Virus record (IMG/VR): IMGVR_UViG_3300005365_000022 | Coordinates: 1 to 64,000 of that record | Source: a virus | Lineage: Duplodnaviria; Caudoviricetes | Reading direction: 5' to 3' (one strand) | Length of the DNA: 64,000 nt | In this document: piece by piece, positions 26,906-52,520 of the stretch | Numbering within the stretch: position 1 is the first letter of the stretch | How the letters are laid out: each line of letters starts with the position of its first letter | Position numbers and translations under genes: made by a program | Notes under the pieces: generated by a model | The model's database searches: none | What the model saw: the letters and a program-made list of their open reading frames with translations, nothing else | Told to the model about the DNA's origin: nothing

Positions 26906-26959
26906 GCTGGTAACGTAATACGCGCGTTAGCAGGTGTCAAGCGCGAGATTACGCGTTCA
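26903..26959 (-). promoter_or_regulatory. sigma70-type leaderless promoter with operator-like motif
   Basis: TTGACA-17-TACGTT-accagc-ATG; GATTACG upstream of the -35. Confidence 0.7.
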
Positions 26960-27160
26960 CGCGTCGCGGATCACGTACCGGTGGCTTGCCCCGCACCGGC
27001 GCCGCAGCTCAGCCAGGAACGGCGCTCCGCTGGCCGGCTGAACCGGCCACGATGCCACCTCGGCCTCCATCTCGCGATCGCTGTACTCGGCCGTGCCGCC
27101 ATCGAACCTGGCGAGCTCTACCAGGTGATCGGCGTCCTCGACGAAGTAGAGGATCGTCAT
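26957..27160 (-). CDS. small protein, candidate immunity partner of the MuF kinase
   Basis: 67 aa, ATGA overlap with the MuF stop; function is inference. Confidence 0.4.
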   Translation of the reverse strand: MTILYFVEDADHLVELARFDGGTAEYSDREMEAEVASWPVQPASGAPFLAELRRRCGASHRYVIRDA

Positions 27161-37627: not shown

Positions 37628-40300
37628 TCACGTTCGCCTCTTTCGCTTCTGGTAGCCGGCGCCGCTCGTCGCGAATCGTGCACCTTCGCGGGCCAGCCAG
37701 CAGTTGTGGACTGCGATCCCCTCAGCCACGTACGACTCGTCCTCCTCCACGTGGAGATTGAAGACCTGACCGGTGTACGGGTGGCTCCTGATGCTGGATA
37801 GCCGCACTGCCACCCCTCCGACCTGGGGGATCGAGCAGGAGTTGGTGCGCGTCCTCAGCGGCGCCCATCTGTCTCCCCAGCGTTGTAGTTCTTCCGGTCG
37901 CGCATCGAGTAGCAGTTCGGTCGAGTCCGTAGCTGACAGCGCGAGCTCCTGCGCCGGCTTGTGACCGCAAGGGATGCCCTGGAACGTTCCTGTTTGATCG
38001 AATGGCTGCACCGACGTGCCAAGCCCGAGACGCCACAGGAATTGTTGCATCTGGTATATCAGCGAGCGCGAGATGCTGACGCCTCGAAGGCGAGGCGTTC
38101 CATCCCGATAGCCAAGACAGCCATCACCGACGAACCATCCGCGCACAATCTGTGACCCGGTTAGCGCGGGCAACGCCATCCACCCCCATGGCAGCGCCTT
38201 GTGTTCCTTCTTGCCAAACGGCCTGAACTCGTTGGCCGCGCGCTTCGATTGCACGCTGACGGTCATCCCGCCGTGGCCGGCCCGCGTGTAGATGCTCGTC
38301 TTGGCCCCCCAACGCTTCATTGCATGATCCCGGACGAAGTCGGCCAGGTAGGTCTCTTTCCGGTGAAACGCGAAGTTCAATTGGTGATCTCCGGCCCAGC
38401 CTTCCGCGAGATATAGCCCGGCCAGAAATGCATAGTCGTCGTCTACTGTCGGGGCGATCCATGGCCACGGTGACACTGGAGCAAGGACAAAGTCGCCTGC
38501 CATCTTCCGTCCGGCGCGCAGATCTTCTGCGGGGACAAAGTCCCACGAGGCGCGATCGGGGACGAGTCTATTGGTTCTCTCACGCGTCGTCATTCGCGGC
38601 AGCGCGCGGTACACCGGATGTTCTCCGGTGACCTGGAGCGTCCGCATGCCCTTAGGCTTGACCTCGAAGACGTCGCCCTCGTAGGGCCGCGACATCGTCT
38701 GGCTGACCGGACGCCAGCGCCCGCGGTGCGTCAGCACCTGATCGCCGATAACGACGTTCTCGATCGGAACCAGACCACGCGCCGTGGTGATCAATTGCCC
38801 AGGGGTCAAACAGGCGATGAGCCGATCCCCGGTGTGGCTCTTGGGGTCGTACCGCAGCATCTCACCGATCAGCGCCCTGACCTCCGGGTGCATGTCTGCC
38901 ATGATTCCCTTGGTCTCCCCGCCGCGGTTCGGGATAACCCACTTACCGGCGCTGAACTCGATCGCGAGAGACTCGATACCGAAGCTCGGGTCGTACTTGT
39001 TCTTCCCGGTGTAGAATGCGCGCGTCGGTACAGCGCTCTTCTCATTGACAAACTGCCGGATAAAAAGCTGGGCTCCGTTGCTCTCTACGATTACCTGTGA
39101 GTTGTAGCGGCGGTTCGCGTCAATGATTCGATCGACGAGCTCGGGGCCAGGCCAGCGCCCGGACTCCACGTCCAACAGCGATCGCACGCCGTCCTTCTCG
39201 CGCACGGCGATCGTCACGATCGCGGATAGGTCGGTGCGCTTCTTCCGATGCCGCTTGAGCTCGGCCGCCGCGATGTCAACGCCGGTCACCGTGCGCCAGC
39301 CTGGCGGGACCGCAGCGAGCGAGTACGCCAGATCGACGCCGTCGCCGTTGGCCAGCGCCTTGTTGATGTACGCCTCCTTGAAGCGCCGATCGGCGTCAGC
39401 GACCGGATCGCAGAACATCGAGCGCCGGCTCTCGATCGGTCCGCGGTTCTCGATCTCGGCCTCGATGCGCTCCTCGGGCCACATCTCGGGCCAGGCGAGA
39501 TTCCCCGCGGCGTCGCGCACCGGGAACTTCTTCGAGAACGTGCGCCGCTCGGAGGCGTAGCGGTGCATGGCGTCGTCTGGGTGCCAAGCGTTGCCGACGA
39601 ACCAGATCCGGCCGCGCGTCGTCCGCCGGCCCTCGATGGTGCTCTTGAGCCAGCCGTAGTACTTATCGCGCTGCTCCTCAGTGTGCGTGTTCTCCGCCGT
39701 GAGGTAGTCGTCGACGATGATCAGGTCGTAGCGGCCACCGAGCACGTTGCCGCCGAATCCGCACGCCTGGACCGTCGGGTCTTTCGCGCCGATCGAAGAG
39801 CGCTTGACGATGAATGCCTCGTTGGTCCACAGCCCGCTGCTGTCGCTCTTGTCGGGCTGGATCCCGGGGAACACCAGCCGGAACTCGACGCTGCGCTCGA
39901 TGTAGCCCTTGAGCGACCGGACGATCTTCCGCGCCGGCCCCGCGGCGCTCGACAGGATCAGGATCCGGATGTTGGGGTTCTTGCCGATCTCCCAAAGCAC
40001 GCGGCCTACCGACACCTCCGAGGTCTTCGCGAGCTCGGTCGCCGACCACAGCACCACGCGATCGTGCTCGGTGAGGATGTCGTGCCACTCCTCGTGGATC
40101 GTCGCGAGCCGCACCGGCTCGTTGGTGTCCTCGGTGCGCAGCACGCTCTGGCAGAACACCGCGGGGTCCCGCTGGGCGGTCTCGGCGAGCCGCGCCAGCG
40201 CCGGCCCGAGCTGCTGAGCCTCGTCGATCAGCCGGCGGTGATCGCGTCGATCAGTTCGCGTCACCGGGCTCCACGCCGAGTTCGGGCTCTGCGTCTTCAT
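37628..40300 (-). CDS. terL: terminase large subunit (intein-containing)
   Basis: Walker B LIIVDD, VGNAWHPDD, nuclease VTGVDIA, IVESNG, HTGDRLIA; exact start uncertain. Confidence 0.9.
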   Translation of the reverse strand: MKTQSPNSAWSPVTRTDRRDHRRLIDEAQQLGPALARLAETAQRDPAVFCQSVLRTEDTNEPVRLATIHEEWHDILTEHDRVVLWSATELAKTSEVSVGRVLWEIGKNPNIRILILSSAAGPARKIVRSLKGYIERSVEFRLVFPGIQPDKSDSSGLWTNEAFIVKRSSIGAKDPTVQACGFGGNVLGGRYDLIIVDDYLTAENTHTEEQRDKYYGWLKSTIEGRRTTRGRIWFVGNAWHPDDAMHRYASERRTFSKKFPVRDAAGNLAWPEMWPEERIEAEIENRGPIESRRSMFCDPVADADRRFKEAYINKALANGDGVDLAYSLAAVPPGWRTVTGVDIAAAELKRHRKKRTDLSAIVTIAVREKDGVRSLLDVESGRWPGPELVDRIIDANRRYNSQVIVESNGAQLFIRQFVNEKSAVPTRAFYTGKNKYDPSFGIESLAIEFSAGKWVIPNRGGETKGIMADMHPEVRALIGEMLRYDPKSHTGDRLIACLTPGQLITTARGLVPIENVVIGDQVLTHRGRWRPVSQTMSRPYEGDVFEVKPKGMRTLQVTGEHPVYRALPRMTTRERTNRLVPDRASWDFVPAEDLRAGRKMAGDFVLAPVSPWPWIAPTVDDDYAFLAGLYLAEGWAGDHQLNFAFHRKETYLADFVRDHAMKRWGAKTSIYTRAGHGGMTVSVQSKRAANEFRPFGKKEHKALPWGWMALPALTGSQIVRGWFVGDGCLGYRDGTPRLRGVSISRSLIYQMQQFLWRLGLGTSVQPFDQTGTFQGIPCGHKPAQELALSATDSTELLLDARPEELQRWGDRWAPLRTRTNSCSIPQVGGVAVRLSSIRSHPYTGQVFNLHVEEDESYVAEGIAVHNCWLAREGARFATSGAGYQKRKRRT
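37703..38812 (-). mobile_element. intein with LAGLIDADG homing endonuclease (370 aa)
   Basis: A/CLTPGQLI start; block B TGEHPVY; LAGLYLAEG and VRGWFVGDG; ends VHN/C. Confidence 0.92.
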
Positions 40301-41485: not shown

Positions 41486-41872
41486 TCATAGGTCGTCAGC
41501 CGTGAGCTCCCCAGGCGGGCGCCACCCGCGGCCACGCAGCGCCCCGCTCGCGATCCACTCGACGAGGGGCGGCAGGTCCAGCGCCAGCGTGCCGATCGGG
41601 TACCGCGGGTCGAGCACCGGGTAGAGCTGCACCGGCGGGTCTCCGAGGTCTGCGGCGTCGCGGATCCCGAAGTACGATAGGTGGCCGGCGCGCGCCATGC
41701 CCGCGAGGATCTCCGCGACCGCGACCTCGCGCCCGGCAACCAGATCCGGCGTGACCGGTCGGCCGGCGCGCTCGCGCACCGCGTGGACAGCAACCCACTG
41801 CAGCAGGACGCCAAGGCAATGCCGCTCTCCCCGCTGCCGCTCCCGGATGGCCTTCTGCGCCGCGAGCTTCAT
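41486..41872 (-). CDS. hypothetical protein
   Basis: ORF downstream of the 42010-42040 promoter. Confidence 0.45.
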   Translation of the reverse strand: MKLAAQKAIRERQRGERHCLGVLLQWVAVHAVRERAGRPVTPDLVAGREVAVAEILAGMARAGHLSYFGIRDAADLGDPPVQLYPVLDPRYPIGTLALDLPPLVEWIASGALRGRGWRPPGELTADDL

Positions 41873-42004: not shown

Positions 42005-42041
42005 AGGATTACCGTAATACGCAATCCACCAGGCGTCAAGC
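42005..42041 (-). promoter_or_regulatory. sigma70-type promoter of the operator family
   Basis: TTGACG-17-TACGGT with CGTATTACG. Confidence 0.65.
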
Positions 42042-42065
42042 TATCGGGTGGTACGGGCTCGAAAC

Positions 42066-43087
42066 GTCGCGTCGTACGGCAGGGAGCGGAATAGGCTAGG
42101 CATGTCGCGTGGAGTCGTCTCGTGTGGTGACGGGTTGCTACGCGTTGGCATGTCGCTCCGGTCTACTATGCGTTCGCTGTTGGGATGGGGTGTTCTGAGT
42201 AGTCGCTCCGTACGGGCGGGTGACGACGTGGGACGGCTCGTCGCAACAGCACGGATGGGCGCGGTTTGGGTAGTCGCATCGCAGCTGCGCCTGCATGGCT
42301 CGGCATGTCGCTCGGGCACGGCCAGGTGCACGTTGGGAAGTCGCGAGGCATCGGAGCGGCAGGCGCGGGTGTTGGGCTGGCCAGTCGCCACGGTCTGCGA
42401 TGGTCCGGTTTGTCGCACTGCTCGCGCTCGGTGTGCCCTGGCCAGTCGCCATGAGGCGGTCCGGTCCGGTTTGTCGCGCTGTTCTGTCGTGCCTTGACCT
42501 TGGTAGTCGCTATGGGGATGCTGTAGCACGGTCCGTCGCGATGCAGCGGCACGGTCAGTTCTGGGCTGGTCCGTCGCGATGCAGGGGTATAGAAGGGCCG
42601 GCATTGTCTCGCTGTCAGGTGGTGACCAGGCATGACCAGTCGCTCGGGCGGGGCAGGGAGCGGAAGGGCAGGCATTGTCGCGTCGAGACGGCTTGGTCGG
42701 ATCAGTCGCCTCGCGTAGAACCGTCGTTGCTCGGGCTTGTCGCCTTGCTCGTAACGGTCTCGGGTTGGGAAGTCGCCGGGCCCAGGAAAGGACGGGCCGG
42801 AATAGTCACGATGACGCGAAGTGATCGCGAAGGATAGGCAAGTCGCAGCGCACGCGAGACGATTTCGATCGGCCAGACAAGTCGTGCAGCCTTGACATAG
42901 GTAGTCGCCCAGCATGGATGAGCGAAGGATAGTCGCTGTGGGCGGATCAGACTGGAAAGGACACGTCGCTATGTTGCTTGTCGCACTGCGCGGCGAGGAC
43001 ACGGATAGAGGACACGGATAGTCGCCACGGCGAGGCCGGCCGCCGTTACGAGTAGGGTAGTCACGCAGCATCCGATCGACTTGTCAC
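42066..43087. repeat. array of ~30 variable units delimited by GTCGC with 5-nt internal periodicity; candidate guide ncRNA array
   Basis: 31 GTCGC/GTCAC/GTCGT/GTCTC delimiters; 20 of 30 spacings are 23/28/33/38/48 nt; internal GGN-NN pentamers. Confidence 0.9.
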
Positions 43088-43125
43088 CAGGGCCTCGCGG
43101 CTCACCCGGCCTGCCCCGTCACGGG

Positions 43126-43911
43126 CTACGCTGCGGCGGTGTCGCTGACGCCGAGATCCTCCATCGACAGGATATCGAACTTGCCGATCCCCTGTGAGCG
43201 AGACGCGCCGATCCCGTGCTCTGCGGCGTGCAGCAGCGACGCGGCGAGCGATTCGTCTGGTAGCTTGCCTTCGATCTCCTTCGCGATGGCGATCTCGAAC
43301 TCGATGATCGGCTGCTTCAGGTACTCGTTGCGCTTGATCGACGCGAGCTTCTGCCCGCGGATTTCGCTGTGACACACCGACGTCGCAATGCCGTCGGGAG
43401 CAGCGCCGAGATAAATATAATCGCGCTCAACGGGCGCAGAGCCCTCCGGCGGCACGCTGTACACGAACAGCGCCTCGGCGATCGACACGCGGGATCCGAG
43501 GTGGGCCTGGCGAAACCCGAGAACCGACCAGTTTTCCTTGAGCATCGCCTTCAGGTTGTTGGTCGGGAACCAGATCCCATCCTTTCCCGGGCGCCGGTGG
43601 AACTGGCAAATCCCCTCCTCGGATACCCGCTCCGCGGCCTCTGCGCGCGCCGTCGGGTCGTCCGGGATGGCCTCGATCTGGTCGCCGAGTCCTCGAGCGG
43701 CGAGCATCGCGTTCGCTGCGTCGAGGTGGCGCGGCTGACCGCCGTACAGGAGCTCGCGGAGCTGGATCTTGATGCGGATCCTCCTCCACTTGTTGGAGGC
43801 CACCTGCTTCAGCAGGTTGTCCCACTGCATGCGGTTCTTGGGCTGGATGATCGCTGGTGTCTTCGGAGATGGGGCGTCGGGGGCGTCCGGCGCTTTAGGC
43901 TTGCGTGCCAT
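43126..43911 (-). CDS. solo RAMP / Cas7-like (Csm3/Csf2-type fold) protein
   Basis: RIRIKIQLRELLYGG; IWFPTNNLKAMLKE (cf. PGSSLKGxxR); C-terminal G-loop GIGASRSQGIGKFDI; AAGGA SD. Confidence 0.8.
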   Translation of the reverse strand: MARKPKAPDAPDAPSPKTPAIIQPKNRMQWDNLLKQVASNKWRRIRIKIQLRELLYGGQPRHLDAANAMLAARGLGDQIEAIPDDPTARAEAAERVSEEGICQFHRRPGKDGIWFPTNNLKAMLKENWSVLGFRQAHLGSRVSIAEALFVYSVPPEGSAPVERDYIYLGAAPDGIATSVCHSEIRGQKLASIKRNEYLKQPIIEFEIAIAKEIEGKLPDESLAASLLHAAEHGIGASRSQGIGKFDILSMEDLGVSDTAAA

Positions 43912-43949
43912 GATGGTGTCCTTGTTGGTGTCGGCACCCGAGCCGACGT

Positions 43950-44001
43950 TGCATACTTGCGTATTACGCATACGCGTGTCAACTACGAACGCGTAATACA
44001 T
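43950..44001 (-). promoter_or_regulatory. promoter/operator region of the RAMP gene
   Basis: TTGACA flanked by inverted GTATTACGC / GCGTAATAC; -10 not clear. Confidence 0.55.
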
Positions 44002-44007
44002 CTACCG

Positions 44008-46463
44008 TCAACGCGCCGCGGCGATCGTGCATGCCGGACAGAGGTCACGATCGCCATCGGCCTCGAGAACCAGCTCCCGCGCCGTCGTCCTGCCCAGTGA
44101 CCAGCGCGCCCGGCGGGCGAGATCGCCGATGCTCTGCCGGAGCTCGGCGTCGCCAACCGTGAGCGTGGACGCCACCAGCAACGCTGCTCCGCATCGGTCG
44201 CAGCTCAGCCGCATCCAGTGCCGGTCGCGCGGATCGGCCTGGGGCTCGACCGCCTGCTGGCTGGCGTCCTTGGCCTGCCGGAGCGCCGCACCAAGCCCGG
44301 CCACGCGCTGCTCGAGGACGCGGCAATCCGTGCAGTCGCTCATCGGCGACCTTGGCGACGCCAACGCATCCGCGTTCGCTGCCGGCCGGTGATTGGGCGG
44401 TTACACCTCGAACACGGCACTCCATAGCACACATGGCCGCACGGCCGGCGAGGGAGATACCCGTGCTCCCAACACTCGCGCGTGGAGTCGTACCTGCACG
44501 GCTTTGCGTTGTACTCGGCAGCCGCCCGATCGCGGGATGCACGTTCTTCTGGCGTGTTCCACTCCGCGAGCAGATCGTCAATCGTCGTTGGCGTCATGGC
44601 TCGCCCGTACTGCCGTCGCCCGGCACCGCGATCCCGTGCCGCTTCCTGATCGCCGCGATGATCCCGGCAGCCTCGCCGTCGCTTGCGTCTTCCCAGCCGG
44701 CGAGCGCGATGGCGAGGTCATCACGAGTTGCTGCCAGGTCGCGCTGTGTTGCGGATGGCGCGACCGCGCGAGCTGCTGGTTCGCTTCGCTGGCTGCGCGC
44801 GATGACCTCCGGGGCCCGGCGCTTACTGGCCAGCACCGCGGGTCCCTGGATGCCGAGACCAGAGCGGCTCACAGCGGCCTCGGGTGGTACTTGCGGTTGC
44901 TCGCGATGTGCCCCTCGATCCCGCAGCGCGTACAGGCGGTGTGCTTGCGGAGCCTATCGATCCGCTGCTCGCCGGCCTCCTCGTGGTCGGCTGCGCGGGC
45001 ACGCCGCACCAGGTCGGCAACCTGTTCCGGCGTCATCGGAATCGGCTCCACCACCACCTGTGTGGCAACCGGCTCCGGCGAAGGCGCCGAGATGCGACCT
45101 CGCACGTCGGCGCGCCGCCGGTCGAGGTCGTCGCGCTTCGGCGGCGTGTACCCGGCCACGATGACCGCGCCCCATCTGCTCGTGCCGGTAGGGGTCACGA
45201 TCGTTGCGCTGAGTGATGGCGTGGGAAGTCCGATCACGCGCCGCGCGCTGCGATCAGCGCCCTCCGGTGCCGGTCGATCTCGTCCACGGTCCCATCCGGC
45301 CAGCCGAACACCATCTGGAGATCCTCGAGCACGTCGCGCTCGTGGCCCACCAGCACACCGTAGACCCAGGCGAGGCACGGGCTGCGCTGCCAGTTCATCC
45401 CGCTGGTGGCGACCACGGCGGTGAGCGCAGAGAGCGCGCCGGCGGCTGCCATGACCTCGCCGACCTCCGCCGCCGGGGACTGCATCGGGATGCGCAGCGC
45501 CCACATCCCGTCTCCGCGGTCGAGCCACTCGCCGACCTTCATGCTGTGACCGCGGTGATCCTCGACCTCCACGAATCTCCCTGATGTTGGCCCCGGTGGC
45601 CAGTCGCACACCACGTCGATGAACTCGATACGATCTCGAGTCGAGGTCTCATCCGCATCGGAAGCCAGCGCACGGAACGCGTATACGTCCGAGACCGGTG
45701 ACCTGCGTGCAGCGTCTTCGGGATGCTTCTCGTGGTATCGCTGTTGCGCTTCCGGGCTCGTCGTGCCGGGATGGACGATCACGTTGCACGTCTCGCATTC
45801 GACGCGATACCGCGGCCGACTGGAATGGAACGCGGTTTCACCGGTAGGTGTCAATTGGAAGCTATGAGCTGATCGGTGGTCGGTGGTCGGAGCCGGATTC
45901 GAATCGGCCAGGGTAGCGGCTGCGCTTGCTACGTCCTCAGGGTCAGCGCCTTTCATCATCTCGGCAACCATCTCCCCGTGCTCTCGCACGAGCTGGGCAA
46001 CGCGCTCCGCAACGGGCACCTGCTCGTCACCAGGCGGTAGGGCGGCGCGAGCTTGGACCAGGGCGTGATGTTCGCGTTCGACTGCGGCGACGAGATCCTT
46101 CCACCCGGCACGCTCCCACCCGCTGTAGTCGAGCGCGGAGGCGACGAGCTCGTGCATCTTCTCGTTGTGCTGTTCTGCGGTCAGCGCCGCTGTCTCGGCG
46201 CGCTTTCGCCGCTCCTCAGATTGCGTGAGCTCCGCCGTCAGGCGGTTGTATTCCACTTTCCAATCTACCGGGTCGTCGAGCTTACCTGCCATTCGTAAGA
46301 CGCCGCGCTCGATGACATGCATCTCCCTGAATGCGATCGCCTCCATGGCCGCCGCCTGCTGGCGCTCGGGAAGCAGCTCGATATCGCCGAGCGACCTAAG
46401 TAGGTCTCCGATTACCGTGTGTGCTCGCTCGAGGCGAGCTTCGAGAGCGGCTTCATCACCCAT
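44008..46463 (-). CDS. accessory ORF cluster (small Cys-rich proteins and a mosaic coiled-coil protein 45234-~46463)
   Basis: Chain of overlapping ORFs 44008-44343, 44340-44597, 44594-44872, 44869-~45200, 45234-46463. Confidence 0.45.
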
Positions 46464-46802: not shown

Positions 46803-47186
46803 TCAGGTGGCGTTCCGTCTCGCGCGCAATCGGTACGCCGTAGGCTTTACCTTGAACACCTTGCGACAATTCGGACATCCGGCGAACAGGAGTGGTAGCG
46901 TCTGATGCTGGCGCGAATGCTCTGCATTCGAGACAAGATCGAGGTTTTCTTGAGCGTCGTCAGTCTTGTCGTGGTTCACATGATGTACGACCTCTTCAGG
47001 ATCGAGCAGCCTGCCGATCCGGTTCTCTACGATCACACGATGAAGCGGGTATAGTCCCTTGGTATTTCTGCGCGGGTGAGGAGGGTCGGTCCTACAGTAA
47101 CGATACCCTCCGCCCTTGCACACCGACACGATCATAAACGGCGGGCCGTCGGGATGTGGCTGGCTGGTGTCGTTCGGCGTCGTCAT
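46803..47186 (-). CDS. HNH endonuclease with C-terminal zinc finger (possibly truncated by TGA)
   Basis: LHRVIVE..IGR.L...EVVHHVNHDKTDD...NL....AEHSRQH; CPNC...; CSRSC lies just past the stop. Confidence 0.8.
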   Translation of the reverse strand: MTTPNDTSQPHPDGPPFMIVSVCKGGGYRYCRTDPPHPRRNTKGLYPLHRVIVENRIGRLLDPEEVVHHVNHDKTDDAQENLDLVSNAEHSRQHQTLPLLFAGCPNCRKVFKVKPTAYRLRARRNAT

Positions 47187-47204
47187 GCTGATGATCGTTT
47201 TACC

Positions 47205-47822
47205 ATGGCCACCGATCAAGCATCCGCGCTCGTCAGGGCGCTCGTCGCCAAGCGTCAACAGCCGAGCTCGCCGGGCGGCGCGCGCGCTTTGGTGCGTCGC
47301 ATCATCGAGCCCAACCTCGATGAGAACGACCTCAGCATCCAGCCTCCAGACGTCGGGCCAATCCGTGAGGAGTTCGAGAAGCTCCGACGCGAGTTTTGGT
47401 CCAATCACTTCGCGTACGCCGACCCATGGATCGGCCGGTCGCGCACGTACGATCCGACCGGCAAGTACAACTGCGGGCGCTGCAACATGGTCGACGCGGT
47501 CCGCTGCCTGCTGCTCAAGGTCCCGGAGATCGACCCGGTCGGCGGTAGCTGCTCGCACTGGGAGGACCAGTGCGCCGGTGACGCCGAGATGCCGGTCCAC
47601 GCGATCCCTCCTGAAGGCGCCGCGTACGCCGAGACCGGCCCCGACGGCTGGGGATGCGTCCGTTGCTGGTGGGCAGAGCCGGCGATCGCACCGGACAGCA
47701 TGGGCAGGACGCTGTACTGCCGGCGGGCTGACTGCCGGGTACTCGAGACGGCGTGCTGCGCGATCAACAGCGCTGATCAGCCATCGTTCGAGGCTGCCGT
47801 CGCGTCGCTGGGATCGGATTGA
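47205..47822 (+). CDS. Cys-rich putative Fe-S/Zn protein (HiPIP-like spacing)
   Basis: CGRC-x7-C...GGSCSHW and a second CVRC...C...CC unit; only intact + strand gene in this arm. Confidence 0.55.
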   Translation: MATDQASALVRALVAKRQQPSSPGGARALVRRIIEPNLDENDLSIQPPDVGPIREEFEKLRREFWSNHFAYADPWIGRSRTYDPTGKYNCGRCNMVDAVRCLLLKVPEIDPVGGSCSHWEDQCAGDAEMPVHAIPPEGAAYAETGPDGWGCVRCWWAEPAIAPDSMGRTLYCRRADCRVLETACCAINSADQPSFEAAVASLGSD

Positions 47823-50800
47823 TCCGCCGCGACGAGCGCGTCGAGCCTCCGCTGTGCGTCGCTGCCGATCTTGATGGCGAGACGCAGGCACTCGACGCAG
47901 TTGACCTCGTCGATCCACGCTCCATCGTCGGTCCACGTGACTCGATCGAGGTCGATGTTCGTGTAGTCGTGTGCTGACTCCTCGTCGCACAAGTTTGAGC
48001 AGCGCTCCTCAGACTCGCCGAGGTGCACAAGCGATCGCACCGCGATGATCTGGTCGAGCTGCGCGCGCAGCGCCGGGTCATCCGTGCTCGAACGCATTTC
48101 ACGCGCGAGCGCAAGCACGCCAGGCGACGGTGGCCAGCGTGTCTCAAGCTCGCGTTCGAGCGCTACGGTCTCACGCGGCCAGTTCTCACGCTGTCTCATC
48201 GCGTCCTCGCGTTGGCGTACTTCGCCCAGCGCTCGGCGTCCTCCCATGGGTTACCCTTGGTCGGGTCAGGCTCGAACGGCTTGAGCCCTGGGTCCTGGCT
48301 GCCGCTGATTCCCGCCAGGAACGCGCTCAGGCACCCGCCGTTCTCGAGCTGGCGCCGGACGAGTTCGCGCTGCTGCGCGGTCAGGCGAGGATGCCGGCGA
48401 GGCACCCCAATACCCGGCGAGGTGACCTCTACCAGATCTTCGGTGTCGATTCGATACAGCTGCGGTGTGGTGCGCATGGCGATCACCCAGCCTCCCCGAG
48501 ATCCACAGGCCATGACACGCCGTCGACCTCGACAGCCATCCTGCGCTCGCGGTTGTACCGGATCCGGTAGACCTGCTCTCGCAGGAGGTCAATGCCGGGA
48601 GGAGGCGCGATCTTGGCGAACCGCGAACCCATCGCCGAAGGTCTCTCCGGACGCGGCGCGATGTCGGCCGCGACCTCCGCATACGACCGCCCGGTGATTG
48701 CCACGGTCGCGCGCTCGAACGCGTCCTGCACGCGCCGCTGCGCCATCCGACCCAGGTTGTGCGTGTGCTCGCACCACGCGATCGCCGTCTTGTCGGCCGC
48801 AGTGTCTTTGTTGACGCCGCCGCGCCGCGACCGCCACCCGACGTTTCTCCCGCGCTCCACGGCCTCCTGCAGGTCCGGGTCGCCGCTCACCACCGCGATC
48901 AGCAGGGACTCCTCGGTCAGCCCGGCCAGCACATCGTCGCACAGCTGCTCGAGCTCGGTGTCGCCGCGCTCGGCCGCGTAGGTCGCGACGTGCTCGACGA
49001 GCTCTGGGCGATCGAGGCGGGTCATGGCGTCACCGTCGGCAGCGTGTGGGCTGCCAGCAACCATCTGCAGGCGTCCTCATCGATGCAGCCGGCGTTCTTT
49101 GCGGCCACGAACAGGAGGCCAGCGATCAGCTGGACCACCGTCACGGCTGCCTCCTGCGCCAGATTGCAGCGCTCACCATCGCGCCGACCGCGAGCCCGGT
49201 GAACAGCCCAGCAAGGTAGAGGTGCCACATGGATCAAAACTCCTGCCCGTCGGCAGCCATCATCGCCGCGCGATCGAAGGCGCGGTCTACGGTGGCCGCG
49301 CGCGCGATCCGCGACAGGCGACCATTGACGCGGTGGGTACCGATGCCATGCTCGCGGTCGAGCCGGTCAGCGAGCTGCTCGGCAAGCTCGGGGTTGAGCA
49401 CCGGGCGGGATAGCTGCGGGCCGACGCCGGGGCCGGTCACGAGGTTGGACGCGAGGTGCGAGTAGCGGTCTGAGCTCGTCATGCTGGTAACGTAATACGC
49501 GCGCGTCATGGTGTCAAGCGATAGATTACGTGTTCACATTACCCCGGGCCTTCGAGCGCGTCACGCCGTCGCGCTTCGTCTTCGGCGGATCCCGGCTGGC
49601 AAACGCCGCACCCACGGCAGCCATCCATCGCGCACGGCTGGTCGGATTCCGCTGCCGTGACGTCAAGCTCGACCGTCTGTATGCCAGACGCGACATCCGG
49701 GTGGAGATCAACGACCTCTGGCACGGCGGGCACCTCGATGAGGCCAGTGCCTGTCGTCACCTGAACTCGGACGTCGGCCGCCGCGTTCAGGATCGGCCTG
49801 GCCCACTCCGCCCAGTCTTTGGCCCCGCCGCGCTTGACCGCCGCGAGCTGGGCATCGTGCTCTCCGGTCGACAGCCGTACCGTCTTGATAACGGAGCGAA
49901 CCACGCCGACGCCGAGCTTGGGCTTTGGACCGCTTCCCGCCCTGGCCCCGCCCACCTTGCTCTTGGCCTCCTTGACGCGGGACTTCTTGGATGCGCGTGT
50001 CTTACTTGTTTGTTTGGTCACGTGTTTCGCTCCTTGGTCACGTGATACGTCGGCAGAGAGATCCGGTCAACCCGGCAGGTCGGCGTGACGCGCGGCTGCC
50101 TCGGCGGCGATGCTGCGCCGGAGCTGCTGCTCGTGCTCCGTCTGGCGCTCGTTATCGGCATGCTGCATCGCGGCGAGATCCCGGTACGCCGCCAGTGCTC
50201 GCTCGCCGCGGGGCGTGATCGCGAACAGCTGCGGAGGTGGTCGCCGCGTGCCATTGCCGCCCGGCTGGCGCCGCTGGGTAACCGGCGTCGCGAGTCCGAG
50301 CTTGAGAAGCGCCCGCCGCATCATCGGCTTCTCGGCGAGCGGGGCCGGGCGCATCGCCAGAATCTCGAGCATCGCCGCGCGCTCTGCGCTGATGCGGTCG
50401 TAGTGCGACAGACCGCACGCCGGGCACTTCGCCCTGGTCGGCAGCTGGCCGAGCCAGGAGCAGGCGCAGACCGCGTACACCATGCGCTTCATCGCTCGCC
50501 TCGGTTCCGTTTGTGGTCGATGATGATCCCGTTGCCCAGCAGTGGACACCACTTCGGGGTTCCGCGCAGTGGCAGAACTCCACCGTCGATGTTGCATTCG
50601 AGCATGTGACCGGTGTTATGACCGGTGTTGAACGGGCAGGTCTTGCAGCTGGCGACAACCATCAGCGCTCGCTTCATGGCGCCGCCGATGCTTTCCATCC
50701 CACAGGCCAGAAGGCCGGATGATGAACGGCCAGCGAGCGAAGCTCGCGCTTCTGGGTGCGACGGCTGAGGCGGCGCAGTCTCCGCATCGCGCGCTTGACG

Positions 50801-51980: not shown

Positions 51981-52034
51981 GCCGGTAACGTAATACGTGT
52001 TAGCTTAGGCGTCAAGCGATAGATTACGCGTTCA
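51978..52034 (-). promoter_or_regulatory. leaderless promoter of the operator family
   Basis: TTGACG-17-TACGTT-accggc-ATG; GATTACG upstream. Confidence 0.7.
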
Positions 52035-52520
52035 GCAAGTGCGGGTGGGTGCGGTCTCATCGGCCGGCTCCGCCGCACCATGCGTCGCCTTCCGCACTCT
52101 ACCGCCCCGCGGTCGCCGCATCGGCACCACCTCAACCACCTTCCTGCGCAGCGTCATCCTCGTCACCATGTCAGTGGTCCCATTTGAGATCCCGTCCCAG
52201 AAGACGAGCGCAGCGTCTCCGACCTCGGCCATCCGGCTGTTCCTCACCTTGGGCGCCATGAACTTGCCGTAGCGCCGCACGTCGGCATCGGAGATCGGCT
52301 CCGGGTGAACCGCGAGGCCCCTCGCCTTGGCCCAGCGCTCGCCACAGGCGTCCACCCCGCCGCCCGGAGACTGGCCGCTCACCACCAGCTCGACCACCTC
52401 GCGCACGCGTGAGATCTCTGGCGGGATCTCTCCCCAGATCGGCATTCGCAGGACCTCGGCGTCGATCTGCTCATCGGTCGGGTGAAGCGACCGACTGCCG
52501 GCGATGATGAGCTTGACCAC
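52032..52520 (-). CDS. SLOG-family protein (DUF2493/YspA-like)
   Basis: KLIIAGSR, VVSG..GGVD..GERWA, RNSRMAE.GDA.LVFWDG.SNGT.DM. Confidence 0.8.
   Translation of the reverse strand: MVKLIIAGSRSLHPTDEQIDAEVLRMPIWGEIPPEISRVREVVELVVSGQSPGGGVDACGERWAKARGLAVHPEPISDADVRRYGKFMAPKVRNSRMAEVGDAALVFWDGISNGTTDMVTRMTLRRKVVEVVPMRRPRGGRVRKATHGAAEPADETAPTRTC

What the first reader, a model, noticed from the sequence alone, without database searches (positions are those of the whole stretch)
42066..43087. Non-CRISPR array with 5-nt quantised units beside a solo Cas7-like gene: candidate RNA-guided system
On +, GTCGC (variants GTCAC/GTCGT/GTCTC) recurs 31 times from 42066 to 43083. Twenty of 30 spacings are 5n+3 (23, 28, 33, 38, 48) and six more are 5n+4. 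Units parse as GTCGCn then alternating variable dinucleotide and G-led triplet, e.g. 42535 GTCGCg-at-GCA-gc-GGC-ac-GGT-ca-GTT-ct-GGG-ct-GGT-cc and 42445 GTCGCc-at-GAG-gc-GGT-cc-GGT-cc-GGT-tt. There are no long direct repeats or contiguous spacers. The array fills the gap between the RAMP stop (43126) and the next promoter (~42040). Inference: each unit is a guide RNA on which RAMP subunits polymerise one per pentamer, with the dinucleotides forming a gapped address. This matches my recollection of recently reported phage RAMP plus GGY/NN repeat systems (VIPR), which should be checked. The GTCGC punctuation and relaxed triplets could make it a distinct variant.
Basis: partly seen in the sequence, partly recalled or inferred. 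Interest (0 to 1): 0.93.

Follow-up and report, generated by a model that had tools for sequence, protein, structure and literature searches.

The report
Phage VIPR guide array, reversed-strand variant
This 88-kb phage carries a VIPR system, a CRISPR-related RNA-guided DNA silencer first described in 2026. It has one Cas7-like protein gene and a 1-kb array of about 30 short five-base-rhythm guide units. The array's grammar and strand differ from the published examples.

Summary
From 42066 to 43087 there are 26 exact GTCGC plus 5 one-base variants and no GCGAC. Twenty of 30 spacings are 5n+3. There is a strong 5-nt G rhythm and no codon rhythm.

Fifty-five homologous viral or metagenomic loci carry period-5 arrays flush against the gene.

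Three things are distinctive:
- The units are short (4-6 pentamers).
- Each unit is capped by GTCGC plus 3 nt.
- The G-rich strand is almost always antisense to vipr.

Locus anatomy in relatives argues that the C-rich, gene-sense strand is the transcript, read as GCGAC, then (NN-RCC)n, then a 3-nt linker. The evidence is arrays flush with ribosome-binding sites, one array fused to a tRNA 5' end, and a two-vipr locus with two array types. This is inferred, not shown.

No targets were found. The scan has met this reversed-strand VIPR form before, in other genomes.

The parts
43126..43911 (-). vipr: solo Cas7-like RAMP gene, 261 aa from the ATG at 43911. The ORF stays open up to 44001, but M31 is the invariant start in homologs.
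43912..44010 (-). Upstream region of vipr, with TTGACA-type -35 boxes and CGTAWTACG operator half-sites. This is the probable vipr promoter, and the likely start of the transcript that runs into the array.
   Evidence: The operator word is shared with the promoters at 26911, 42010, 49488 and 51986. The promoter assignment is inferred; the generic scan found no sigma-70 consensus.
43088..43125 (.). Junction block between the vipr stop and the array. It is conserved in close relatives whose array units have otherwise turned over.
   Evidence: A shared stretch of 24-39 nt is found in the window, L001 and L056. Two short GC hairpins can be drawn by eye; there is no U-tract.
42066..43087 (.). Array of 30 units bounded by 31 anchors. 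On the + strand each unit reads GTCGC, NNN, then (GG-N-NN)n. On the - strand (sense with vipr) it reads GCGAC, then (NN-R-CC)n, then NNN. Unit lengths are mainly 28, 33 and 38 nt. The transcribed strand is inferred to be minus.
   Evidence: Units are shared in the same order, with insertions and deletions between them, with L001 and L056.
42010..42045 (-). Operator-flanked promoter for the next gene (41486-41872). It marks the distal boundary of the vipr-array module.
   Evidence: It has the same element and orientation as three promoters that sit directly upstream of leaderless minus-strand genes.

Best explanation
This is a phage-encoded VIPR system of a divergent clade. The 261-aa Cas7-like Vipr protein is made from 43911-43126. 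The 1-kb array lies in the 3' untranslated part of the same minus-strand transcript. That transcript is cut into about 30 short guide RNAs of roughly 25-35 nt. Each guide starts with a GCGAC cap pentamer, followed by 4-6 pentamers of two variable bases plus a fixed R-C-C, and a 3-nt linker. By analogy with published VIPR, one Vipr protomer binds per pentamer, hides the fixed bases and presents the variable dinucleotides. The dinucleotides read double-stranded DNA of competing mobile elements through a gapped code and silence it without cutting. What is shown here is the fold, the array statistics, the family-wide linkage and the locus anatomy. The transcribed strand, processing at the cap, protein binding, the pairing rule and the targets are inferred.
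For: The kind is published, with the one-protomer-per-repeat mechanism. The protein has a Cas7 fold and a G-loop. It is a single RAMP with no CRISPR array in an 88-kb phage genome.

Period-5 arrays lie next to the gene in 41 of 55 homologous loci by a strict GG-GG criterion: 38 sense-C-rich only, 2 sense-G-rich only, 1 both. At least five more are seen only through GCGAC anchors.

Four lines of evidence favour the minus (sense) strand:
1. In L002, L003, L008, L011 and L016 the array fills the whole gap between co-directional genes, ending 10-50 nt from a stop codon on one side and at a ribosome-binding site on the other. That leaves no room for an antisense promoter.
2. In L026 the array is divergent from vipr, yet its C-rich strand is again flush with the ribosome-binding site of the gene it abuts.
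3. In L019 a C-rich unit ends, after its 3-nt linker, exactly at the 5' end of a same-strand tRNA-Arg.
4. L004 has two RAMP genes. A SUSP1-like viprA is followed by canonical sense GGC-NN arrays. A window-family viprB is followed at once by GCGAC-capped C-rich units on the same strand.

In addition, the SUSP1 residues that read G1 and G2 (D177, W178) are A and S here in the hhalign alignment of the G-loop, which is itself of low confidence, while R179 is kept. Non-GGY fixed trinucleotides such as GAC/NN and CAC/NN are already reported for divergent VIPRs.
Against: There is no RNA data. The G-rich strand looks like canonical GGY/NN, with position 3 a pyrimidine in 64% of GG pentamers. A simple inversion of the array is evolutionarily easier than a protein that reads the reverse-complement motif. 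No promoter or terminator was detected on either strand by consensus scans. No natural targets were found. Units of 4-6 pentamers give only 8-12 informative bases under the published NN rule. Direct sequence similarity to SUSP1 Vipr is weak.
Confidence: 0.55

Rival explanations
1. The same VIPR system, but the guides are the G-rich plus-strand RNAs: NNN, then (GG-Y/N-NN)n, ending in a short GUCGC tail. They would be transcribed antisense to vipr from a promoter not yet recognised. This may be the 'staggered array' form mentioned in the VIPR preprint.
For: The motif matches the published GGY/NN, including a pyrimidine bias at position 3, and a repeat tract followed by a 3' conserved element mirrors SUSP1 vrRNAs. 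GG fidelity is highest in the pentamers just 5' of GTCGC. In the window the array sits between a hairpin-rich block after the vipr stop and a fresh promoter for the next gene, so it could be excluded from sense transcription. The preprint lists NNNGG-type repeats and staggered arrays without stating a strand.
Against: In most relatives an antisense promoter would have to lie inside a coding sequence or a tRNA. In L001 the next gene has no promoter-like spacer and seems to depend on read-through across the array. Abundant sense transcripts would be complementary to such guides. In L004 and L007 canonical G-rich arrays and these arrays lie in opposite orientation within one co-directional block.
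Confidence: 0.3
2. The array is not a guide bank. It would be a cis element of the vipr transcript or DNA, for example a decoy or sponge for a rival VIPR's guides, a Rho-loading or insulating spacer, or a protein-binding DNA lattice.
For: The C-rich sense RNA is the reverse complement in kind of canonical vrRNA repeats. L004 and L007 show both types together. No targets were found.
Against: Most loci of this clade have no other candidate guide within the 4-13 kb examined (no sense-G-rich tract within 1.6 kb of vipr in 52 of 55), yet they keep a conserved RNA-binding RAMP. The variable positions turn over quickly while the fixed positions and 5-nt phase are kept, as expected of programmable guides.
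Confidence: 0.08
3. The region is a protein-coding gene, a degenerate CRISPR array, or a chance feature of high-GC sequence.
For: ORFs of 187-301 aa overlap it, and one was called as a gene in a relative.
Against: There is no period-3 signal and GC is flat by codon position. Unit lengths and between-phage indels are not multiples of 3. There are no long repeats. Enrichment P is 5.5e-13 and spacing P is 3.8e-8.
Confidence: 0.01

Closest known systems
VIPR systems (Vipr protein + vrRNA), type II exemplars Escherichia phage SUSP1 and a Pseudomonas fulva prophage (bioRxiv 10.64898/2026.04.26.720920 and 10.64898/2026.04.26.720927)
   Same: Both are phage-encoded, with a single minimal RAMP with RRM core, thumb and G-loop and no other cas genes. 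Both have flanking noncoding tracts of 5-nt repeats that alternate fixed and hypervariable bases. The arrays are hypervariable between close relatives.
   Different: SUSP1 has four vrRNAs of about 100 nt, each with 9-16 strict GGY/NN repeats and a structured 3' tail, on the gene's own strand. Here about 30 units of 4-6 pentamers are packed head to tail with only a 5-nt cap plus a 3-nt linker. The third fixed position is relaxed. The G-rich strand is antisense to vipr. The Vipr is longer (261 aa against 195 aa), and direct sequence similarity is confined to the G-loop (hhalign P 0.005). No conserved vap gene was found.
'Staggered vrRNA arrays' and NNNGG-type repeats of other VIPR types (same preprint, text and legend of fig. 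S18; figures not readable here)
   Same: [quoted passage not shown]
   Different: I could not check whether the figure shows GTCGC punctuation, 5n+3 spacing or strand. The preprint says staggered arrays were not among the forms confirmed by small-RNA sequencing.
Non-canonical VIPR arrays with fixed GAC/NN, CAC/NN, WGT/NN or TGH/NN (bioRxiv 10.64898/2026.10.21.760802)
   Same: Vipr-like fold next to 5-nt arrays whose fixed trinucleotide is not GGY.
   Different: Those clusters are described as about 10 uninterrupted repeats. No capped short units or RCC motif are mentioned in the text.
Class 1 CRISPR-Cas Cas7 backbone with crRNA (type III Csm3/Cmr4)
   Different: There are no 24-48-nt repeats, no contiguous spacers, and no Cas5, Cas6, Cas10, Cas1 or Cas2. 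The step is 5 nt rather than 6.

Membership tests
VIPR | Not part of a CRISPR-cas locus: no CRISPR array and no other RAMP | tested here: met
   There is one family-HMM hit and no CRISPR-like repeats in the 88,170-bp genome. Neighbouring ORFs have no cas or defence-family hits. A full cas-gene scan of every ORF was not run.
VIPR | Adjacent noncoding tract of tandem 5-nt repeats with fixed and hypervariable positions (at least 4 units) | tested here: met
   The same holds in 41 of 55 homologous loci by a strict criterion, and in more by cap motif.
VIPR | Fixed trinucleotide GGY on the transcribed strand | tested here: inconclusive
   GG is on the strand antisense to vipr, and position 3 is a pyrimidine in only 64%. 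The transcribed strand is not measured. Locus anatomy favours the C-rich strand.
VIPR | Conserved structured 3' tail after the repeat tract (type II) | tested here: not met
   Only a 5-nt GTCGC/GCGAC motif plus 3 nt separates the units. This is a feature of type II, not of all published types.
VIPR | Sequence homology to published Vipr proteins | tested here: inconclusive
   Direct tests were weak: hhalign of the family profile against SUSP1 Vipr gave E 0.12 and 0.005, the latter over the G-loop only, and an HMM search of the SUSP1 genome found nothing. There is a transitive link. L004 viprA matches SUSP1 Vipr (BLASTP E 5e-9; reciprocal phmmer 2e-5) and matches the family profile (hhalign prob 74%, E 2.9e-5). 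The seed X1U2U4 was not available.
VIPR | Accessory vap gene in the operon | tested here: inconclusive
   Neighbouring genes are syntenic only in closely related phages, and none is shared with the other loci. The preprint says loci 'typically' have a vap gene.
VIPR | Phage or provirus location | tested here: met
   Single 88-kb contig with an intein-bearing large terminase. Relatives come from IMG/VR, and the nearest Atlas clusters are 88-96% viral.
VIPR | vrRNA expression, Vipr-RNA complex, gapped (1-nt skip) DNA recognition | not testable with these tools
   No transcriptome or biochemistry is available. Computational target searches gave no signal.
CRISPR-Cas class 1 | Array of 24-48-nt direct repeats with contiguous spacers, plus Cas5/Cas6/large subunit and adaptation genes | tested here: not met
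   single RAMP only.

The most novel reading that the evidence does not exclude
This Vipr clade does not read GGY/NN. It would load C-rich guides cut from its own mRNA, each with a GCGAC cap pentamer, NN-RCC body pentamers and a 3-nt linker, about one filament turn long. It would therefore be orthogonal to canonical VIPR, which would explain why some phages (L004, probably L007) carry both systems side by side with separate arrays. That would give a second, independently programmable noncontiguous code and a capped, multiplexed guide format closer in layout to crRNAs.
Probability: 0.5. Interest if true: 0.7.

Novelty: new variant of a known kind. Interest (0 to 1): 0.5.

Why it matters
VIPR was described only in 2026. 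So far it has been characterised experimentally for type II, with small-RNA sequencing for types III and V.

A large, mostly metagenomic viral clade uses a different array format: dozens of very short capped units. It probably also uses the opposite strand and so a different fixed motif. If confirmed, this would widen the known RNA specificities of Vipr proteins. It would provide an orthogonal pair for engineering, and a natural example of heavily multiplexed short guides.

It also bears on the proposed Vipr-to-Cas7 evolutionary link. If instead the G-rich antisense strand is the guide, the finding reduces to another member of a published type.

Tried and rejected
- **DNA and protein similarity.** The locus found nothing in 50,697 GenBank phage records, by DNA or by protein.
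- **Family libraries.** Pfam and PHROGs gave nothing for the RAMP. PADLOC gave only a weak Csm4 G-loop hit, E 0.0025. A profile search of PDB sequences gave nothing relevant.
- **Link to SUSP1 Vipr.** The direct profile comparison was weak, and an HMM scan of the SUSP1 genome was empty.
- **Promoters and terminators.** Consensus scans of the window array and of L002, L004 and L008 gave nothing usable for deciding the strand.
- **Ribozymes.** An Rfam scan of 44 loci found no hammerheads between units. It did turn up the L019 tRNA.
- **Targets.** Unit dinucleotides (positions 4-5) or trinucleotides (3-5) were joined with 0-3 skipped bases. They were searched against the phage's own genome and against 1.2 Mb of related loci. 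None gave more perfect or one-off matches than shuffled units. The 1-nt-skip rule was, if anything, depleted.
- **Pattern scans of public collections.** These were not run, because 12-14 specified bases would return hundreds of chance hits.
- **L026 tRNA cluster.** It proved unrelated to any array.
- **Coding-gene and CRISPR readings.** Both were rejected.

Full report
**1. Observation**

The window is 67.5% G+C and is part of a single 88,170-bp contig. Between 42066 and 43087 the plus strand carries 26 exact GTCGC. That is 25 per kb against 4.1 per kb elsewhere (Poisson P 5.5e-13). No other 1-kb stretch of the genome exceeds 11. There is no GCGAC in the stretch.

Twenty of the 30 spacings are 5n+3 and six are 5n+4 (binomial P 3.8e-8). 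G autocorrelation peaks at lags 5 and 10. Local period-5 power is about seven standard deviations above the rest of the window. Codon periodicity is absent, at 0.10 against a background mean of 9.3. Overlapping ORFs have flat GC by codon position.

**2. Anatomy of the array**

Counted back from each anchor, the sequence falls into pentamers with G at position 1 (79%) and position 2 (48%) and variable bases elsewhere. GTCGC sits in phase with the upstream pentamers, and three extra bases follow it. This is why the spacing is 5n+3.

Units are mostly 28, 33 or 38 nt, which is 4-6 pentamers. A few units are diverged duplicates of each other.

**3. The gene**

The ORF at 43126-44001 (minus strand) has about 90 homologs at E below 1e-30 in metagenomes, nearly all 250-270 aa. 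Met31 is invariant, so the real start is 43911. It has no Pfam or PHROG family.

It is the only RAMP in the genome, and there is no CRISPR array. The genome is a phage: the 890-aa gene four ORFs downstream is a large terminase split by an intein.

**4. What is known**

VIPR systems were reported in 2026: a minimal phage RAMP (Vipr) plus vrRNAs of alternating GGY/NN. One protomer binds per repeat. The NN bases read double-stranded DNA with one skipped base per repeat, and this silences competing phages and satellites.

The preprint defines seven types. It mentions relaxed repeats (NNNGG, YNNNG, NNNNG), 'staggered' arrays and ribozyme-interspersed arrays. A later preprint reports non-GGY fixed trinucleotides such as GAC/NN and CAC/NN.

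**5. Family-wide linkage**

A scan of IMG/VR with the family alignment gave 51 viral loci, and four more came from exact look-ups. Each has one family member. By a strict criterion 41 of the 55 have a period-5 array within 1.6 kb, usually flush against the gene, either upstream, downstream or both.

Loci at only 31-33% protein identity (L003, L008) show the same grammar in very clean form. Pooled over 13 loci, 113 of 192 spacings are 5n+3 (P 5e-32), with modes at 28, 33 and 38. More distant loci use GTCGG as punctuation.

Close relatives (89-93% protein identity) share a few units in the same order, with other units inserted or lost between them. They also share a conserved block next to the vipr stop. 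Fixed positions and phase are kept while content turns over, as expected of a guide bank.

**6. Which strand?**

In SUSP1, which I located in GenBank record KT454805, the GGY/NN tracts are on the gene's own strand. In this family the G-rich strand is antisense to vipr in 38 loci, sense in 2, and both in 1. Several observations indicate that the C-rich, sense strand is what is transcribed.

- **Arrays flush with flanking genes.** In L002, L003, L008, L011 and L016 the array fills the whole space between co-directional genes. It starts about 10-50 nt after a stop codon and ends at a ribosome-binding site. An antisense promoter would have to lie inside a coding sequence. The downstream gene, often vipr itself, must be transcribed through the array.
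- **L026.** Here the array is divergent from vipr. Its C-rich strand is again the one flush with the ribosome-binding site of the abutting gene, and the promoter-sized spacer is on the other side.
- **L019.** A C-rich unit ends, after its 3-nt linker, exactly at the 5' end of a same-strand tRNA-Arg. RNase P would therefore cut where a unit boundary falls.
- **L004.** This locus has two RAMP genes. viprA (191 aa) matches SUSP1 Vipr (BLASTP E 5e-9), shares its G-loop Trp-Arg, and is followed by canonical sense GGC-NN arrays. The window-family viprB follows, and three GCGAC-capped C-rich units start at its stop codon. A further canonical tract comes after them. L007 likewise has a canonical sense tract and a 1.7-kb array of the present type.
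- **Guanine-reading residues.** In the hhalign alignment of the G-loop, the SUSP1 residues that read the two guanines (D177, W178) are Ala and Ser here, while R179 is conserved.

Read on the sense strand, a unit is GC-GAC, then NN-RCC repeated, then a 3-nt purine-purine-pyrimidine linker. GAC is one of the fixed trinucleotides already reported.

Against this stands the resemblance of the G-rich strand to canonical GGY/NN, with 64% pyrimidine at position 3. In the window itself the array lies between a hairpin-rich junction and a fresh promoter, so sense read-through is not proven here. Consensus scans found no promoter or terminator on either strand. I put the sense-strand reading at about 0.55, the antisense reading at 0.30, and other functions at about 0.1.

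**7. Mechanism proposed**

The operator-flanked promoter upstream of 43911 drives vipr and the array. The transcript is cut at or beside each cap. The agent is unknown: a host RNase or Vipr itself. Each unit then nucleates a short Vipr filament of about one helical turn; SUSP1 filaments have six subunits per turn. The variable bases address DNA of rivals.

With 4-6 pentamers, the published NN rule gives only 8-12 informative bases. Either position 3, which is relaxed here, also pairs, or specificity comes from many guides acting together. None of this is shown.

**8. Targets**

Searches under eight pairing rules found no excess over shuffled guides. They covered the phage's own genome and 1.2 Mb of related loci. 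The absence of self-matches agrees with the preprint's report of no self-targeting. The true targets are probably in co-occurring elements that are not at hand.

**9. Membership and novelty**

The defining features of VIPR that can be tested by sequence are met: solo RAMP fold, no CRISPR context, adjacent 5-nt array, and phage location. Sequence homology to published Vipr is only transitive, through L004 viprA. The type II tail and a vap gene are absent. The GGY-on-transcript feature is unresolved.

I file it as a VIPR system of a variant form. The capped short-unit grammar may coincide with the preprint's 'staggered arrays', whose figure I could not read.

Notes of this scan show that the same reversed-strand form was already met in several other genomes, with the strand question left open. 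The L004, L019 and L026 observations add new arguments to that question.

Noticed in passing
window 37628-40300 (-): Large terminase subunit interrupted by an intein. Residues 81-459 match phage TerL at 22-24% identity. Residues about 495-867 carry Hint, LAGLIDADG and intein-splicing signatures. The closest GenBank phages are below 30% identity, so the phage is far from cultured ones.
   Followed up: partly
window 26911-26960, 42010-42045, 49488-49540, 51986-52040; related words at 43956-43982: Repeated promoter/operator element: TTGACA, 17 nt, TACGTT-like -10, with near-palindromic CGTAWTACG half-sites on both sides. At three sites the ATG follows the -10 by about 6-7 nt, suggesting leaderless transcripts under one repressor.
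   Followed up: partly
L004 4146-5870 (IMGVR_UViG_3300033150_000513): Two different Vipr genes in tandem, each followed by its own array type: canonical GGC-NN tracts of 14-18 repeats, and three GCGAC-capped C-rich units. This is a natural candidate for orthogonal VIPR systems in one phage.
   Followed up: partly
L019 8989-9231 (IMGVR_UViG_3300050507_000234): A C-rich pentamer array is fused to the 5' end of tRNA-Arg(CCU). A second tRNA with a CUA (amber-reading) anticodon follows directly, and more C-rich pentamers follow that. tRNAs may serve as processing punctuation for the array.
   Followed up: partly
L002 1922-2195: Group I intron (Rfam RF00028, 60 bits) about 3 kb upstream of the vipr locus of a 199-kb viral contig.
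   Followed up: no
window 46803-47990 (-): A 395-aa ORF with a C-terminal HNH_3 endonuclease domain (E 8e-9), a few genes upstream of vipr.
   Followed up: no
window 42402-42517: Two adjacent two-unit blocks of 55 nt, 71% identical and 61 nt apart. This is a tandem duplication of units followed by divergence, showing one way the array grows.
   Followed up: no
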